NCBI RefSeq assembly: GCF_006345805.1
Contig: NC_043012.1
Coordinates: forward strand, 49,538,001 to 49,602,000
Direction of reading: 5' to 3'
Length of the DNA stretch: 64,000 nucleotides
Source: Octopus sinensis
Lineage: Eukaryota
The stretch's first letter is position 1, and every line of letters begins with the position of its first letter. This document shows, piece by piece, positions 390-51,548 of this stretch. The position numbers were made by a program, and so were the translations under genes. A model generated the notes under the pieces. It ran no database searches. It worked only from the letters and a program-made list of their open reading frames with translations, and was not told the DNA's origin.

Positions 390-589
390 ATATATATATA
401 TATATATATAAATAATAAATATTAGGGAATAAATCCAAATTTACAGGGAAAAAATCAGATTTAGGATTAAATCCAATTTTATAGTAAAATATTATAAAAT
501 ATTATTAGAGACAAAACCACTATTTTGCAAAACAAACAAGGAAAGACTTAATCAATACATAAAATTTTAATAAATAGTCAAAAAAACCG

Positions 590-632
590 CCACTACAATC
601 GTTTCTTGTCTTGATCGACAATCTTCAGGTGG
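590..632 (-). ncRNA. Minimal type I hammerhead ribozyme
   Basis: Minus strand reads ccac CUGAAGA uuguc gaucaa gacaa GAAA c gauu g UA gugg. Stem I is ccac/gugg, stem II is uuguc/gacaa, stem III is short and self-complementary (acgauugu). Core is intact; predicted cut at GUA between 594 and 593. Confidence 0.85.
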
Positions 633-856
633 ACTTCCAATCTAAGAATAAAATGTGATACTTGATCCTTCTTAGTCCCTTCAATGAAGCAATCAGAGTC
701 AGCTACTAGGCTCAAGTCTTTGACCAGATCAGTCAAAGCCATAAAGTCATCACCAGCACCAAGCACTCGAATGAGAAAGTCTAGGCGTTTGAAAGCAAAT
801 TTCTCCAATTTTTCCAGGGAAATATTTCCAGAAGGAGGTTTTATATAAAATGACAT
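593..856 (-). pseudogene. PRIM2: N-terminal fragment of a DNA primase large subunit (PRIM2-like) fused to ribozyme-derived codons
   Basis: FYIKPPSGNISLEKLEKFAFKRLDFL and KKDQVSHFILRL match the PRIM2 motifs FYxxPPxxNISLxEFExxAxxRxxxL and RxDHISHFILRL (recalled). Homology ends at HFILRL; the last 14 codons are largely hammerhead sequence. Confidence 0.75.
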
Positions 857-1044
857 CTTGGAGTTTTGAAGTTTTCAGCTCTCTTCTTAACGACCAAAAT
901 AGAAACTTTATAGTCATCTTCGTGCTAAAGAGCGGTCTGAGTCCAGATCTTCCATCATATCACCCATCAGACTTAAATAACTGTTGTTGTTGTTGGTGTG
1001 ATAAATAAACATTTAGCCAACATTGTGGAATTCAAATTCGCGGC

Positions 1045-2930: not shown

Positions 2931-3229
2931 GTGGAGGCGCAATGTCTCAGTGGTTTAGGGCAGCGGACTCGCGGTCGGAGGATCGCGGTTTCGATTCCCT
3001 GACCGAGCGTTGTGTGTGTTTATTGAGCGAAAACACCTAAAAAAAGCTCCATGAGCACCGGCAGGGGGTGTTGGCGACCCCTGTTGTACTCTTTCACCAC
3101 AACTTTCTCTCGCTCTTTCTTCCTGTAACGCTGCGATGGACTGGCGTCCCATCCAGCTGGGGGGAGCACATGCGTCACAGAAACCAGGAATCCGGGCCCA
3201 TGGGCCTGGCTGTGTTTGAAAAGGACGCA
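2931..3229 (+). mobile_element. tRNA-derived SINE (family A)
   Basis: Same head (cagcggactcgcggtcggaggatcgcggtttcgattcc) and core (ctgcgatggactggcgtcccatccag) as 1533-1833. Confidence 0.9.
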
Positions 3230-3235
3230 TAATAT

Positions 3236-3467
3236 TAGTTAGTTAGTTAGTTAATTTGGCTCAAAAGCAAATAGCAAAGCCATGTAGGAGGACATGGAGT
3301 TAAGTACAGGGTGGTGTTCATGTAAAGAGTTCAGGCCACTTGAGGTCAAGGGAGGCTTTGAACAAAGCGGTCGTCGGCATCTTCACCATCTCGTCTGGCA
3401 GCTTGTTCCACGGATCCGCAACCCGGACGGAGAAAGCTCCTCTCCTTCGATTGAGATGAAATCGTCA
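3236..3467 (-). mobile_element. CR1-clade LINE 3' end
   Basis: Minus translation RFHLNRRRGAFSVRVADPWNKLPDEMVKMPTTALFKASLDLKW fits the CR1 ORF2 C-terminal pattern (FSxRVxxxWNxLPxxxVxxxxxxxFKxxLD); (TAAC)n tail. Confidence 0.8.
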
Positions 3468-22276: not shown

Positions 22277-22611
22277 TGTATATATATATATATATATATA
22301 TACATATATGTATATATATATATATATATATACATATGAACAGCTAGGTGCAATATAATACTATAAAGAAGAAATTTTATTCTCACTAATCCTCACTGAG
22401 GCTATCGGATCAGACGTATTGCTACAAATAAGAGTTACAAACTCTTAAAGTTTTACGAAGCATACAATATATATATACACTGACTGGGAAGATAACCGCT
22501 TCTTGAACAACTCTTGGGGATCACTGGACTAGGTTAGTCTATCAGTTGTGGGCTCGTCAGCAGTGACTACTCAGTCGTTCACTGGTTTGGCTAATGTATG
22601 TGTGTGTATAT

Positions 22612-22969
22612 TCTTTTATTCTTTCATTCTTTTATTTGTTTCAGCCATTTGACTGAGGCCATGTTGGCGCACTGCCTTTAGTCGAAGAAATCGAACCCAG
22701 GGCTTATTCTCTGTAAGCCTAGTACTTATTTTATCGATCTCTTTTGCCAAACCGCTAATTTACGCTAAGTTGCCAAGCGATGGTGGGGGACAAACACCGA
22801 CACACAAACAAACACACACACACATATACGACGGGCTTCTTTCACTTTCTGTATACCAATTCCACTCACAGCCCGAGGCTATAGTAGAAGACACTTGCCA
22901 CGCAGTGTGACTGAACCCGGAGCTATTTGGTTTGTAAGCATGCCGCTTAACGCACAGTCACTCCTGCGC
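22612..22969 (-). mobile_element. tRNA-derived SINE (family D)
   Basis: Minus head gcgcaggagtgactgtgcgttaag...ccgggttcagtcac, internal (GT)n, and (gaataaaa)-type tail. Confidence 0.85.
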
Positions 22970-22982
22970 ATATATATATACG

Positions 22983-23017
<35 letters not shown>

Positions 23018-23019
23018 AT

Positions 23020-23230
23020 GTTTTTGTCTGTGTTTGTTCCCCTAGCATTGTTTGACAACCGATGCTGGTATGTTTATGATCCCGTCACTTAGCGGTTCGG
23101 TAAAAGAGACCGATAGAATAAGTACTAGGCTTACAAACAATAAGTCCTGGGGCCGATTTCATCGACTAAAGGCGGTGCTCCAGCATCGCCGCAGTAAAAT
23201 GACTGAAAGAAGTAAAAGAGTAAAAGAGTA
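23020..23230 (+). mobile_element. Family D SINE 3' half, inverted relative to 22612-22969
   Basis: ttagcggttcggtaaaagagaccgatagaataagtactaggcttaca...taaaagagtaaaagag. Confidence 0.85.
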
Positions 23231-23406
23231 TATATATATATATATATACAGTGACAAAGTTTTTCTTTAATTAAACTATGAATAATACAACATATTTAGT
23301 TAATTAAAATGACTGACACGTGTTTTTGCTGCATAGATTATGTACAGTTGTAACCCACAATATTCCGTTATGTTCCTTCACTCAGAGTCTTTCCACAAGG
23401 GTGCTT

Positions 23407-36327: not shown

Positions 36328-36625
36328 TGATATTATGTATTAATAGTAATGGTAAGACAACAAAGGAATGAATGAGACCTCGATATTATGTAAATAGAGG
36401 AATTTATCTGTAATATGATATGTGACAATTATTCGGTTGCCATAATAAGACTCCAAGTTTTGGGTGTCGGAGCGGAAACCTGCTCCAGCATCTCGTCAAC
36501 TATCGAGGCAAGCATTTTTTGATTGCCTTGATAACAGACGAGATGCCGGAGCAGGTTTCCGCAGCGGCATCCGCAACTCGGAATCTTAATGTGGCAACCG
36601 AATAATTGTCATATATTATTTTACA
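36328..36625. mobile_element. Penelope-like pLTR fragment with an inverted duplication; both arms carry degenerate hammerheads
   Basis: Arms 36409-36511 and 36523-36625 are inverted. The inferred consensus is gataa CTGACGA gatgccggagc..gctccggcatcc GAAA ctcggag TC ttat. Flanked by (TA)n. Confidence 0.75.
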
Positions 36626-36641
36626 TATGTATGTATGTATG

Positions 36642-41244: not shown

Positions 41245-41416
41245 TAATATTGGTTTCAAATTTTGGCACAAGGCCAGCAATTTTGTGGGACAGGGCTAAG
41301 TCGATTACATCCGTGCCGATAAAATAAGTAGTAGTTGAGTACTGGTGTCGATGAACTCGACTAAGCCCTTCCCCTAAAGCTGCTGGCCTTGTGCCAAAAT
41401 TTTGAAACCAATATTA
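41245..41416. mobile_element. Fold-back of two family B SINE 3' tails
   Basis: taatattggtttcaaattttggcacaaggccagca ... tgctggccttgtgccaaaattttgaaaccaatatta. Confidence 0.85.
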
Positions 41417-44900: not shown

Positions 44901-44916
44901 TAAACAAAGTATGTAT

Positions 44917-44993
<77 letters not shown>

Positions 44994-45017
44994 ATATACA
45001 TATATACATATACACAT

Positions 45018-45067
<50 letters not shown>

Positions 45068-45068
<1 letters not shown>

Positions 45069-45336
45069 GGAGTAAACACATAAATGTGAAACAAGGTGGA
45101 AAAAAGAGTACTCAAATACCAGTGGTAGAGTAATATGCTTTATTTTAAGCAGCAGAAAATTCAACAAAATCTGTTACTCTGAGTTTCTCGTTGCCGTTCA
45201 TCAGACAGTTTTTGCTAGAATGGAACATATATATAAATTTATATATATGTTCCATTCTAGCAAAAACTGTCTGATGAACGGCAACGAGAAACTCAGAGTA
45301 ACAGATTTTGTTGAATTTTCTGCTGCTTAAAATAAA

Positions 45337-45342
<6 letters not shown>
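45068..45342. mobile_element. Penelope-like pLTR fragment with a perfect 200-bp palindrome
   Basis: 45138-45337 is a loopless perfect palindrome centred on aaa|ttt. The left arm continues to 45068, and both sides are (TA)n. Confidence 0.85.
45267..45304 (+). ncRNA. Minimal type I hammerhead ribozyme (mirror copy on the minus strand at 45171-45208)
   Basis: cugu CUGAUGA a cg gcaa cg a GAAA cucagag UA acag. Stem I is cugu/acag (extendable to caaaaacugu/acagauuuug), stem II is a short GNRA-capped hairpin with an A-A at 10.1/11.1, and stem III acucagagu is palindromic. Confidence 0.8.
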
Positions 45343-45419
<77 letters not shown>

Positions 45420-47279
45420 ATAGATAGGTAGATAGATAAACACACACACATATACTGAAGTACTGGTGCTGTTCTCTTCAATTTTGATGTTAACAAGAGC
45501 AGAGTAGCGTTGGGGTACTGCGACGGTGCTAATGAATTTTTTTTTTTAATGCAAGATTAAGTAGTGGCTGGTTCGATCCACTGGAGTACTGTATATCGAA
45601 TTAAGGATATTTATGCCATTTTAACTCAAATGAAAATATTTGGAACTTCACATGGTTTCCAGGAGTTGTATGATACATATGAAAAACAGAACAAGAATCC
45701 AAATCTGGTATTTCTTGATGAAAGCAATGTGGCTTACATTATCCAGTCTGCGGCACACATTGTAAGCTGTAGCTTTTGTTTTCTCCGTTTAAAACGAAAC
45801 CTCTGAATTTTGGAAGCGAGGAATAATGAGAAGTGGTCGTTCCTAATGTTCTCTCATAAAATATAATTAGTAGCATGATACTTCTGAAATAATTTCAACC
45901 GAGAATCGAAACTGTGTCACGGCCCCAATTTGGTGAAAGCGAAGCACACGTTGCTGCACGAAATACAGAAAGTGTAAAATTTATTGATGGTACACAAGAC
46001 ATTAATAGATACAATTATATCTCGTTAAAGCAAACATGTTGATGTTAAAAGGATCTTTTGATGCTGTAGTAAGTCTCAGGGGACTAAATAAACTACTAAT
46101 GAGAAAACTGTCTATTCTAGTTTTAATTATATTTTATTTACAATATGGCTGAGAGGAAGTACGTTGAGTTTGCAAAACGCTCTCCTGGGGTACTTTTCTT
46201 CAGCCGTATTGTTGATGTTCATTATCCGCGTCTCTGTTTTGGTCACTTACGATATTGCCAGATGTACATTATATGCTTTGCCGAGGATGTTTAATAAAGC
46301 TGAAACATTATTTCATCGGTCGATATTAATGCAAGATCCAATTCCACTGTAACAATTTTATGTTGAAAAAAAATTTTTATCAAGTAATCTGTTTAGATTT
46401 ATACCATTTGCTTTTACAACATCTTAACTTAATTTCCAAATTTTCTCTGTTAAATATATGACTATATACAGCGTGCAATGTTTTGTATTTAGTTAGTGGA
46501 GAGAGGGAGGAATGAAAGCTGTCACCACGTTGTAAAACACTAAATGTTTAAATATAATTAAATATGTTTCGATCTGAAACATGCAACTACTGCACGTAAT
46601 GCAATTAATGTAATGCTAAAATAATATACTTTAGTGAAGCTTGCTCTGCACTGAGCGAGACGGTTTATCAGTGACCCCGATCTTAGATTTATAAAGATTT
46701 TGGCTCTATCAGATATGCAAGAGAATAAATTGGTAAATGAAATCAGTGCATGTATGTGTGTTTATTGACCATCAATAAAATTCTAGCGAATTATGAAATG
46801 ATGCATGACATTACATTGCAAATGCGTTATTTCTCTGATTTCCATGAGTTTCGCATAGTTATGAGCCCTATGCTAACGATGTTGATAGTCTTTATCTTTG
46901 TAGGATAACATCATTTTTTCTGTACTACTAAATCTCGATAAACTGGTAGCTGCTTTCAAAAGTTAATATTTTACAACGCTGTCATCACAACGTTTGCCGT
47001 AATATTTAAAACTTCTTGTGTTTAGTTTGTTAATTTCCGCATGGAATACCGGATTGAAAATATTTTCTTATCATCTTTATCGACTGCTAAATGTCCCATC
47101 TGTGCTCTCGTTATTTCTGTCTGTTCAATCTGATCTTAAATAATGTAGTCCAGATCAATTCTAGAACAACTCTCCTGATAGTCATTGAAGATACAAAGAA
47201 AAGAAGCTTCGGCATTTTCTGAAGAATTCAGACATTTTAATGACGCCGTAAACTAGATATGATAATAATGACCTAATTT

Positions 47280-49063: not shown

Positions 49064-50056
49064 GTTTTCTTTCTTATTAGCATTGTAGAATTTATAAGTA
49101 TAGGTACGACAATAAACATCGAAACGTTTTTGGAGGTAAGTGCGGGAAACGTTGGATAACATAGATTTTGAAGATAATGGCTATAACTGGCCGATTTCAG
49201 AAGTTGCAGTTCGTACAAGTTGGATTCGTATCTCTTCCATTATAATGTTTTTAGATTCTATTAACTGACCAAATGACTCTTGATTTTATTAAGCAAGTTA
49301 GGAAGTATGAAGTGTTTTAGGAAACATTTGCACTCTACAGCGGTCATTTTGTGATCACGTGCAACTGTATTTAGGGAAGTCGTTTTATAATTGCCCAAAA
49401 TATAGATGCACTAGTTTTACTCCAGCTTGCCTATTGCAAGAAGAAGCTCCCAAAATGCAGGCAACTTGTTCATAATACTTTGAGCTAAAAAAAAGAGCAA
49501 AATATTATCCTGTTCACACTTGAACATTATTTCTCACAAAATTCTGCCACCCAACCTAATTTTATTAATGATCAAGGTATTACCTACCCTAGCTCTCATT
49601 ATTGATCCTCAAAAAAAAAATCAATTATATTGGGACATAGTTTGCCTATTAATATGATTGGAAAAAAAAACGCACTTTTCCTTCTGTGCACTCGACACTT
49701 TATACTTATATCTTTATTGCATTATTGATATTCTCCCCGTTTTCCGATTTCATGAAATGAATTCGTTTTTTGACACGGGAGAGACGTTTTCAGAAACAGC
49801 AATTTATTAAAAATCAGTGTTCAATAGAAAATATATTCTATATTCGTCATTCGTGGAATATCTGCATTGATTTCCAACATTACTACAAAGGTAACGAATT
49901 GATGAAACAGGATGAAGCCGATTTTATCCCCACCGGTACTAGAATGTCACTTATTTCATTGATGCGCGAAAATCGGAACTCGGGACAGAGAATGGCATAA
50001 TCAAGTGCCGCCAAGCGTGTATTGCCGAAGTCTAATGATTCCTAATGCTTGTATAG

Positions 50057-51366
50057 AAAGCAGGCCAAGCGTCATTCAACGAAGAAAGCGGACCAAGAAT
50101 CATTCAACGAAGAAAGCGGGCCAAGCATCATTGAACGAAGAAAGCGGACCAAGCGTCATTCAACGAAGAAAACGGGCCAAGAATAATTCAACGAAGAATG
50201 CGGATCAAGTGTCATTCAACGAAGAAAGCGGACCAAGCCTCATTCAACGAAGAAAGCGGGCCAAGAATCATTCAACGAAGAAAGCGGACCAAGCCTCATT
50301 CAACGAAGAAAGCGGGCCAAGCATCATTCAACGAAGAAAGCAGACCAAGCGTCAATCAACGACGAAAGCGGGCCAAGCCTCATTCAACGAAGAAAGCGGG
50401 CCAAGCATCATTCAACGAAGAAGGCGGGCCAATCATCATTCAACGAAGAAAGCGGGCCAAGCATCATTCAACGAAGAAAGCGGACCAATCATCATTCAAC
50501 GAAGAAAGCGGACCAAGCATCATTCAACGAAGACAGCGGGCCAAGAATCATTCAATGAAGAAAGCGAGGCAAGCCTCATTCAACGAAGAAAGCGGGTCAA
50601 GCGTCATTCAACGAAGAAGGCGGGAAAGCGTCAGTCAACGAAGAAAGCGGGCCAAGAATCAGTCAACGAAGAAAGCGGACCAAGAATCATTCATCGAAGA
50701 AAGCGGACCAAGCATCATTCAACGAAGAAAGCGGGCCAAGCATCATTCAACGAAGAAAACGGGCCCAGCATCATTCAACGAAGAAAGCGGCCCAGCGTCA
50801 TTCAACGAAGAAAGCGGACCAAGCGTCATTCAATGAAGAAAGCGAGGCAAGCCTCATTCAAGGAACAAAGTGGGTCAAGCATCATTCAACGAAGACAGCG
50901 GGTCAAGCATGATTCAATGAAGAAAGCTGGCCAAGCATCATTCAACGAAGAAAGCGCGCCAAGCATCATTCAACGAAGAAAGCGGACCAAGCGTCATTCA
51001 ACGAAGAAAGCGGACCAAGAATCATTCAACGAAGAAAGCGGACCAAGAATCATTCAACGAAGAAAGCGGACCAAGCGTCATTCAACGAAGAAAGCGCGCC
51101 AAGAATCATTCAACGAAGAAAGCGCGCCAAGCATCATTCAACGAAGAAAGCGGACCAAGAATCATTCAACGAAGAAAGCGGACCAAGCGTCATTCAACGA
51201 AGACAGCGGGCCAAGAATCATTCAAGGAAGAAAGTGGGCCAAGCATCATTCAATGAAGAAAGCGAGCCAAGCCTCATTCAAAGAAGAAAGTGGGTCAAGC
51301 ATCATTCAGCGAACAAAGTCTGCAATGCATATTTCAACGAAGAAAGCTAGCCTAGTCTCATTCAAC
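50057..51366 (+). repeat. 28-bp minisatellite/satellite array, about 46 units, consensus ccaagcatcattcaacgaagaaagcggg
   Basis: Direct inspection; no spacers. The 28-aa periodicity of the overlapping ORF equals 3 x 28 nt. Confidence 0.97.
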
Positions 51367-51548
51367 ATAAGAGCAAAGAAAAATGAAAAGTTCCGCATTC
51401 AATCTTGAGAGTAGTATATAAAGCTTTCAAAACACATGGATACAAGGAATCTCTGTTGATCATCCATATTGAAGGAAATGTTATGGATACTGGAATGCAA
51501 GGAAATCCTTTACTACGGAGAAATATCTGGTATTGGTTTCAAAACAAA

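What the first reader, a model, noticed from the sequence alone, without database searches (positions are those of the whole stretch)
45138..45337. Perfect 200-bp loopless palindrome with a hammerhead on each strand
Seen: no mismatches between the arms, and an intact core with a palindromic stem III. Any transcript through the locus would contain one sense ribozyme and its exact antisense. Inference: a very recent insertion from a third ribozyme family, which implies an active partner element. The hairpin could block cleavage and feed siRNA or ADAR pathways.
Basis: partly seen in the sequence, partly recalled or inferred. Interest (0 to 1): 0.75.

Follow-up and report, generated by a model that had tools for sequence, protein, structure and literature searches.

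The report
Head-to-head Penelope retrotransposon stub
This perfect DNA palindrome is one of well over a thousand short insertions of a young Penelope-type jumping gene, and the family's insertions suggest that its mirror shape likely arises when two DNA copies of one RNA are started from the two ends of the cut chromosome and joined head to head; the ribozyme-like motif in each arm is the element's ordinary one and is untested.

Summary
The palindrome is real: 100 of 100 bases pair, with no loop. It is part of a 270-bp insertion in (TA)n: one arm carries a 70-nt tail, the facing arm has none. The family has 1,198 exact tail-less ends in this genome, 110 loopless palindromes with another centre, and one twin of this one. 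Its autonomous partner is found: 3.3-kb units with open 705-712 aa frames (telomerase-like RT fold, C-terminal GIY-YIG fold, Hydra-clade motifs). Facing arms paired a tailed with a tail-less end in every resolved case (60 of 62, 26 of 27, 22 of 23; no same-type pair). Either arm can be longer, arms share alleles, and joins show microhomology. This fits two cDNAs primed at two fixed RNA sites and joined at their 3' ends, not the published self-priming idea. The hammerhead core is complete, but A10.1-A11.1 replaces the usual G-C pair; a dimer fold is predicted and cleavage is untested. Inverted pLTR, tail and hammerhead are known Penelope features. This scan reached the same twin-cDNA reading before on other DNA of this genome. 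The siRNA/ADAR role has no support here.

The parts
45068..45337 (.). Whole insertion (about 270 bp): tailed arm plus tail-less inverted arm of a Hydra-type Penelope-like element
   Evidence: Matches unit positions 3224-3400 and 3224-3330 of the full-length copy in L112 at 97-99%; same layout as the family
45068..45137 (-). Tail of about 70 nt between end site 1 and end site 2; in full-length copies it continues into the 5' leader of the ORF
45138..45237 (-). Left arm: pLTR sense on the minus strand, continuous with the tail
45238..45337 (+). Right arm: pLTR sense on the plus strand, ending at fixed site 1 (tail-less end; 1,198 exact TA-flanked matches in G000)
45236..45239 (.). Junction: self-complementary AATT shared by both arms (4-nt microhomology), which makes the centre loopless
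   Evidence: the same centre at L151
45254..45316 (+). Type I hammerhead motif: core C3 at 45271, GAAA 45288-45291, predicted cut after the GUA at 45300, A10.1/A11.1 unpaired; 45254 is also the family's inferred RNA 5' end
45159..45221 (-). Mirror hammerhead motif on the minus strand (C3 at 45204)
44909..45067 (.). (TA)n-rich microsatellite, left part of the target
45338..45421 (.). (TA)n microsatellite, right part of the target

Best explanation
The palindrome is the middle of a short insertion of a young Hydra-type Penelope-like retrotransposon in a TA repeat, and it likely formed when the element's enzyme cut both DNA strands and started two cDNAs on one RNA, one from each cut end, which were then joined head to head. 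Shown: the element, its open RT plus GIY-YIG frames, two fixed outer ends about 70 nt apart, one end of each type per facing pair, variable inner ends and short microhomologies. Inferred: (1) the two outer ends are the two internal reverse-transcription start sites described in vitro for the anole element; (2) one target end is always primed at site 1 and the other at site 2; (3) both cDNAs come from one RNA or one source locus; (4) their 3' ends are joined by 1-5 nt of microhomology or short inserted bases, and a loopless centre results when both stop at the same self-complementary word (AATT here, CTAG in 110 loci); (5) most short palindromes come from priming near the 5' end of the element's own mRNA and running off at position 45254-equivalent, while this copy ran 16 nt further and would need a longer, read-through RNA. 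The hammerhead is a passenger of the pLTR. It is predicted to fold only as a dimer and would be silenced by its antisense arm in a transcript across the locus.
For: End rule: of 94 tail-less ends examined, 62 had a facing arm, 60 ending in the tail and none at site 1; of 40 tailed ends, 27 had one, 26 ending at site 1 and none tailed; of 24 long-biased tailed arms, 23 had one, 22 at site 1. Of 88 distinct palindromes the tailed arm reached further in 22, the tail-less in 39, and they were within 2 nt in 27. In 5 the tailed arm is confined to the tail, so the arms share no sequence. Solo tail-less copies up to 2.8 kb long show that site 1 is an end in its own right. Minor alleles were in both arms 136 times and in one arm 16 times, against 12.6 and 134 with shuffled partners (98 loci). 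Microhomology averaged 1.86 nt in 42 direct joins against 0.72 in the null, and 0 of 5,000 shuffles reached it. Furthest 5' points: 34 at 3242-3249 against 3 at 3234-3241; short or long status was shared by both arms in 86 of 88. In a sister family in this genome the short arms are spliced (23-nt leader joined to the ribozyme exon), while 3 of 12 longer or unpaired copies searched show leader, GTAAGT, a 1.3-kb intron and TTTAG, so its template was sense mRNA. Partner protein: AlphaFold pLDDT 92, best Foldseek match TERT 3du5 at E 2e-9; C-terminal domain against I-TevI Z 9.6, rmsd 2.3 over 89 residues. In vitro precedent for two internal start sites and cutting and extension on both strands: PMC11167929.
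Against: All mechanistic evidence is from fixed genomic copies. Later deletion at palindrome centres and gene conversion between arms could mimic unequal arms and shared alleles. The samples were picked by exact patterns, so they favour young TA-flanked copies on C1 and C2. The RNA 5' end of this family is inferred from a pile-up of ends and an Inr-like word, not from RNA data, and the splicing evidence is from the sister family only. This copy is outside the run-off class (7 of 65 short palindromes reach 3211-3240). Identical junctions recur at unrelated loci, which re-mobilisation of whole stubs could also give. 18 of 60 clean junctions have inserted bases rather than microhomology.
Confidence: 0.7

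Rival explanations
1. Self-priming or fold-back: an antisense RNA or the first cDNA folds on itself and is copied, as proposed for rotifer Penelope palindromes; later deletions at the centre make the arms unequal.
For: Published reading of Penelope palindromes (PMC3846280 discussion). It explains alleles shared by the two arms and the 27 of 88 junctions within 2 nt of symmetry.
Against: The extra sequence lies on either arm (22 against 39); 5 pairs have arms with no shared sequence; long solo tail-less copies exist; a loopless centre cannot form by snap-back of one strand (inference from geometry); spliced arms in the sister family point to a sense template.
Confidence: 0.13
2. The palindromic stub is itself a non-autonomous element: a hairpin RNA that is transcribed and re-inserted whole by the Penelope protein.
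For: 110 loci share the CTAG-centred form; L151 repeats this exact centre; L092/L119 and L087/L111 share junctions with unrelated flanks.
Against: Most junctions are unique. CTAG lies 3 nt from the run-off edge, so it is an expected hot spot. The CTAG form occurs with both subfamily alleles. Whole re-insertion gives no reason for the far end to stop exactly at site 1.
Confidence: 0.1
3. The locus is kept as a host regulatory hairpin that blocks its ribozyme and feeds siRNA or ADAR pathways.
For: A transcript through it is predicted to form a 98-bp hairpin. Penelope copies yield small RNAs in rotifers and flies (PMC3846280).
Against: The same structure is a routine insertion product at hundreds of loci. 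A plain ORF listing showed no obvious host exon near the locus, which is a weak test. Nothing here shows selection on this copy.
Confidence: 0.04
4. The palindrome is a long-read or assembly fold-back artefact.
For: No contig spans the whole locus; the single crossing contig has only 15 bases on one side.
Against: Both outer ends sit at fixed family sites in TA repeats; a twin locus has arm mismatches; fold-back joins of the family appear in contigs of three studies.
Confidence: 0.03

Closest known systems
Hydra clade of C-terminal EN+ Penelope-like elements (Craig et al. 2021, PMC8557442; read: passages and section 11)
   Same: Single ORF with RT and C-terminal GIY-YIG; RWK, DKT, CxxC and CxH motifs; no CCHH; hammerhead in the pLTR; (TA)n targets; partial tandems with an inverted 5'-truncated copy and a one-sided tail.
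   Different: Unit 3.3 kb (described as generally under 3 kb); tail about 70 nt (30-40 described for PLEs generally); the second Cys of CxCX5C is F or S in 7 of the 8 top copies where the linker was matched; thousands of ends in one genome.
Poseidon_Ac (PAc) of Anolis carolinensis (Frangieh et al. 2024, PMC11167929; read: parts 1-2 of 4)
   Same: Two internal RT start sites bounding the tail; cutting and extension on both strands; AT-rich target; hammerhead upstream of the start sites.
   Different: Other clade. In the parts read, the paper ties the two sites to the tail but gives no account of inverted repeats or of a one-tail-per-insertion rule.
LINE-1 twin priming (as reviewed in PMC10760644; read: passages)
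   Same: Two cDNAs primed from the two target ends and joined by microhomology give an inversion.
   Different: In L1 the second priming is at a variable internal site, so the two parts do not overlap (recalled). Here both starts are fixed and 70 nt apart, so the arms overlap and form a palindrome, and this is the majority outcome (62 of 94, 27 of 40).
Minimal type I hammerheads of metazoan PLEs (Cervera and de la Pena 2014, PMC4209133; read: parts 1-2 of 4)
   Same: Located in the pLTR; small palindromic helix III predicted to need a dimer; dual motifs on opposite strands 100-700 bp apart were already noted there.
   Different: No G10.1-C11.1 pair (A and A in 182 of 206 aligned copies; U in 12, G in 11); helix II only 2 bp; long helix I.
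Non-LTR retrozymes (preprint 10.64898/2026.07.22.740005; read: part 1 of 5)
   Same: Short non-coding type I hammerhead repeats related to PLE pLTRs.
   Different: Retrozymes are head-to-tail tandem arrays; this is a single head-to-head pair cut from a coding element at its fixed ends.

Membership tests
EN+ Penelope-like elements | Telomerase-like reverse transcriptase in a single ORF | tested here: met
   727-aa stop-to-stop frame in L112 with YRDD; best Foldseek match TERT, E 2e-9. Pfam gave no hit.
EN+ Penelope-like elements | C-terminal GIY-YIG endonuclease | tested here: met
   Domain model against I-TevI Z 9.6, rmsd 2.3, 89 aligned; ranks 2 and 3 are T4 EndoII and UvrC. Y, Y-x-G, R, E and N invariant in 118 of 118 homologues. 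Foldseek alone had no hit at E<=0.001.
EN+ Penelope-like elements | pLTRs from partial tandems, an inverted 5'-truncated copy, and a one-sided tail | tested here: met
   L112: 2.8-kb tail-less inverted arm, then pLTR-ORF-pLTR-tail at over 99% identity; family-wide.
Hydra clade | RWK motif and DKT in place of DKG | tested here: met
   RLRWK in 10 of 10 and SDKT in 8 of 10 top copies.
Hydra clade | CxCX5C linker | tested here: inconclusive
   Present in L222 and L031 and in 118 of 118 homologues; second Cys is F in 6 and S in 1 of the 10 top copies, with no match in 2.
Hydra clade | No CCHH in EN; CxxC and CxH flanking the conserved E and N | tested here: met
   No Cys between VVY and the CKLC motif; CKLC and CRH present, invariant in 118 of 118 homologues.
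Hydra clade | Insertion into (TA)n | tested here: met
   Both ends here; nearly all far ends. The sampling patterns required TA at the near end only.
Hydra clade | Placement in the Hydra RT phylogeny | not tested
   No named Hydra reference proteins were fetched; no tree was built.
Type I hammerhead ribozyme | Conserved core CUGANGA, GAAA, UH with closed helices | tested here: met
Type I hammerhead ribozyme | Paired 10.1-11.1 (usually G-C) opening helix II | tested here: not met
   A10.1 with A11.1 in this copy and in 182 of 206 aligned copies; A-U in 12, mostly older copies that also carry C4.
Type I hammerhead ribozyme | Self-cleavage | not testable with these tools
   Monomer hammerhead fold probability 5e-5; the cofold minimum of two copies is the double-hammerhead form, -28.0 against 2 x -12.9 kcal/mol.
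Non-LTR retrozymes | Head-to-tail tandem units each with a hammerhead | tested here: not met
   One head-to-head pair; the sequence is the pLTR of a coding element.

The most novel reading that the evidence does not exclude
Hydra-type Penelope elements insert by an ordered twin priming: one RNA-protein complex cuts both strands of (TA)n and always primes one end at site 1 and the other at site 2 of the same sense RNA, so that inverted pLTRs, the one-sided tail and loopless palindromes are all one reaction. Most genomic copies would be run-off products from the 5' end of the element's mRNA. The young family also spreads with a hammerhead lacking its 10.1-11.1 pair.
Probability: 0.6. Interest if true: 0.72.

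Novelty: new member of a known kind. Interest (0 to 1): 0.5.

Why it matters
How Penelope-like elements make their tandem and inverted repeats is named as an open problem (PMC8557442), and the published reading of the palindromes is self-priming on antisense RNA (PMC3846280). This family gives a strict end rule, a sharp run-off edge and open-frame copies, which turn that question into a direct assay. The locus itself is one ordinary copy among many. Searches for a twin-priming account of Penelope inversions listed no paper devoted to it, but the library lacks most subscription papers, and earlier notes of this scan reached the same reading in this genome.

Tried and rejected
Rfam: no hammerhead family at the locus; whole-window hits shown were mostly microsatellite matches to miRNA models. 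A first core regex missed the motif because it required a 10.1-11.1 pair. Pfam and PDB sequence searches did not recognise the protein; Foldseek on the C-terminal domain gave only weak hits. Homodimer prediction of residues 17-490 gave no answer. Run search: no RNA holder listed. Presence/absence could not be read because contigs stop in the TA flanks. Rows dropped before counting facing pairs: L129, L140, L169, L188 (second hit separated by TA or unrelated DNA, or too short to align), L159 (direct tandem), L096 (no chain); L182 is the same insertion as L079; L206 and L207 are an assembly duplicate, both counted in the 24-locus set, which also holds the window's own locus. L062 and L135 were left out of the microhomology count as low-complexity miscalls. 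The AG at 45259-45260 was considered as a splice acceptor explaining the edge and rejected, because arms run through it to 45254 in genomic sequence. Supplements of the papers (Hydra consensus files and ribozyme lists) were not opened and may already hold this family.

Full report
Observation. Positions 45138-45237 and 45238-45337 are exact reverse complements with no loop. Each strand carries a type I hammerhead core. The 12 core bases are present and the cut triplet is GUA, but 10.1 and 11.1 are both A, helix II has 2 pairs, and helix III is self-complementary apart from its central A. Rfam does not score it. The palindrome lies between two TA microsatellites, and 70 further bases on its left (45068-45137) belong to the same insertion.

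What it is. The 172 bases 45066-45237 match 40 of 40 scored loci in G000 at 99-100% (372 candidates). Following these copies leads to a 3,325-nt unit. Locus L112 shows the whole arrangement: a 2.8-kb inverted arm without tail, then pLTR, ORF, pLTR and tail, with repeats over 99% identical. Its frame is 727 aa stop to stop. Eight of the ten best protein matches in G000 have open frames of 705-712 aa from Met. Pfam does not recognise the protein, but the AlphaFold model (pLDDT 92) matches telomerase TERT best, and the C-terminal domain matches the GIY-YIG domain of I-TevI (Z 9.6, rmsd 2.3, 89 residues). RWK, DKT, CxxC, CxH, the lack of CCHH and (TA)n targets fit the Hydra clade as described in PMC8557442 section 11; no tree was built. 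The family is large: 1,198 exact tail-less ends next to TA, 1,055 exact site 1 junctions with tail, and 1,923 tailed ends on the reverse strand alone (forward hits are double-counted).

The palindrome is the family's usual product. I mapped 94 of the first 100 listed tail-less ends, the first 40 listed tailed ends not already seen as partners (7 skipped; L182 later proved to be the far side of L079), and 24 long-biased tailed arms. A facing arm was present in 62 of 94, 27 of 40 and 23 of 24. It ended in the tail in 60 of 62, and at site 1 in 26 of 27 and 22 of 23; none was of the same type as the starting end, and four were unresolved. Loopless centres fall on self-complementary words: CTAG at 110 loci and AATT here and at L151, which has other flanks and two arm mismatches. 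Perfect arms are common: 36 of 89 palindromes have no substitution between arms. So the copy is young, but perfection alone does not make it the newest.

How it likely forms. PMC11167929 showed in vitro that an anole Penelope protein cuts and extends both strands and starts reverse transcription at two internal sites that bound the tail. The two fixed outer ends here read naturally as such sites. Four results favour two cDNAs over fold-back. First, the extra sequence lies on the tailed arm in 22 and on the tail-less arm in 39 of 88 palindromes. Second, in 5 the arms share no sequence. Third, tail-less solo copies reach 2.8 kb. Fourth, direct joins carry more microhomology than chance (1.86 against 0.72 nt, 42 joins; 18 of 60 have inserted bases instead). 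The arms come from one source: minor alleles are in both arms 136 times and in one arm 16 times, the reverse of shuffled pairs, and short or long status is shared in 86 of 88. Inner ends pile up at a sharp edge equal to window 45254 (34 at 3242-3249 against 3 at 3234-3241). That base is the first of hammerhead helix I and the A of an Inr-like word (consensus recalled), so I infer the mRNA start. The window's copy runs 16 nt past the edge, as 7 of 65 short palindromes do, so it would come from a longer read-through RNA. I tested this on a sister family that has a copy at window 400-900. Its short arms carry a 23-nt leader joined directly to the ribozyme exon, while 3 of 12 longer or unpaired copies searched show the leader followed by GTAAGT and, 1.3 kb on, TTTAG. 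That points to a sense mRNA template and speaks against self-priming on antisense RNA, the reading in PMC3846280, at least for that family. The caveats are real: centre deletions and gene conversion after insertion can mimic parts of this pattern, and no RNA or biochemical data were available for this family.

The ribozyme. It is the ordinary pLTR motif of Penelope elements; PMC4209133 already notes pairs on opposite strands and low, dimer-dependent activity. The monomer is not predicted to adopt the active fold (probability 5e-5), while two copies cofold as a double hammerhead. In a transcript across the locus the hairpin (-165.9 kcal/mol) would dominate. The A-A at 10.1/11.1 is the family state (182 of 206), and 12 mostly older copies have A-U, often with C4, so activity is uncertain. 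In the anole element the ribozyme was not needed for insertion in vitro.

Artefact check. Contigs of three studies hold family fold-back joins, and one X2 contig crosses this centre, with 15 bases on the short side. Together with the fixed ends and the twin locus, an artefact is unlikely, but no read spans both unique flanks.

Verdict. The structure (inverted pLTR, one-sided tail, hammerhead) is known for Penelope-like elements, so this is a new member of a known kind. The value lies in the family-level end rule and run-off edge, which make the open question of how these inversions arise testable. Paper searches listed no paper devoted to twin priming in Penelope elements, within a library that lacks most subscription journals. 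Earlier notes of this scan reached the same reading on other DNA of this genome; they are not counted as support. Papers seen: PMC11167929 parts 1-2 of 4; PMC8557442 passages and section 11; PMC4209133 parts 1-2 of 4; PMC3846280 passages and discussion; PMC2377424 and PMC10760644 passages; preprint 10.64898/2026.07.22.740005 part 1 of 5. No supplements were opened.

Noticed in passing
window 400-900, minus strand: Copy of a second Penelope-like family with its own hammerhead (C3 at 628, paired 5-bp helix II). 1,770 exact matches in G000; two outer ends about 88 nt apart; 8 of 8 full facing pairs among 22 loci had one end of each type; short arms are spliced, with a 1.3-kb intron in long copies.
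   Followed up: partly
window 36335-36628: Older palindrome of a third family in a TA repeat, arms about 80% alike, with a tail of about 70 nt on one side; 2,274 candidates in G000. The relaxed scan found no intact hammerhead core in it.
   Followed up: partly
L213-L221 (P0001 residues 578-586): Most top open-frame copies have F or S at the second Cys of the CxCX5C linker, which is Cys in 118 of 118 homologues.
   Followed up: no
L177, L178, L185, L187 and others: Older copies have CCGAYGA (C4) with A10.1-U11.1 or G11.1; the young copies have U4 but A11.1. Neither state is a fully canonical hammerhead.
   Followed up: partly
L071, L081, L163, L169: Insertions whose second arm is only about 4-14 nt but still ends at the fixed site of the other type.
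   Followed up: partly
window 49963-51408: Tandem array with long open frames of a basic repeat (481 aa on the plus strand; others on the minus strand).
   Followed up: no
window 41245-41416 and 22595-23250: Diverged inverted pairs of SINE-like repeats, 77-81% alike.
   Followed up: no
L206 and L207: Two unplaced contigs 99% identical over 9.9 kb around one insertion, likely a haplotype duplicate in the assembly.
   Followed up: no
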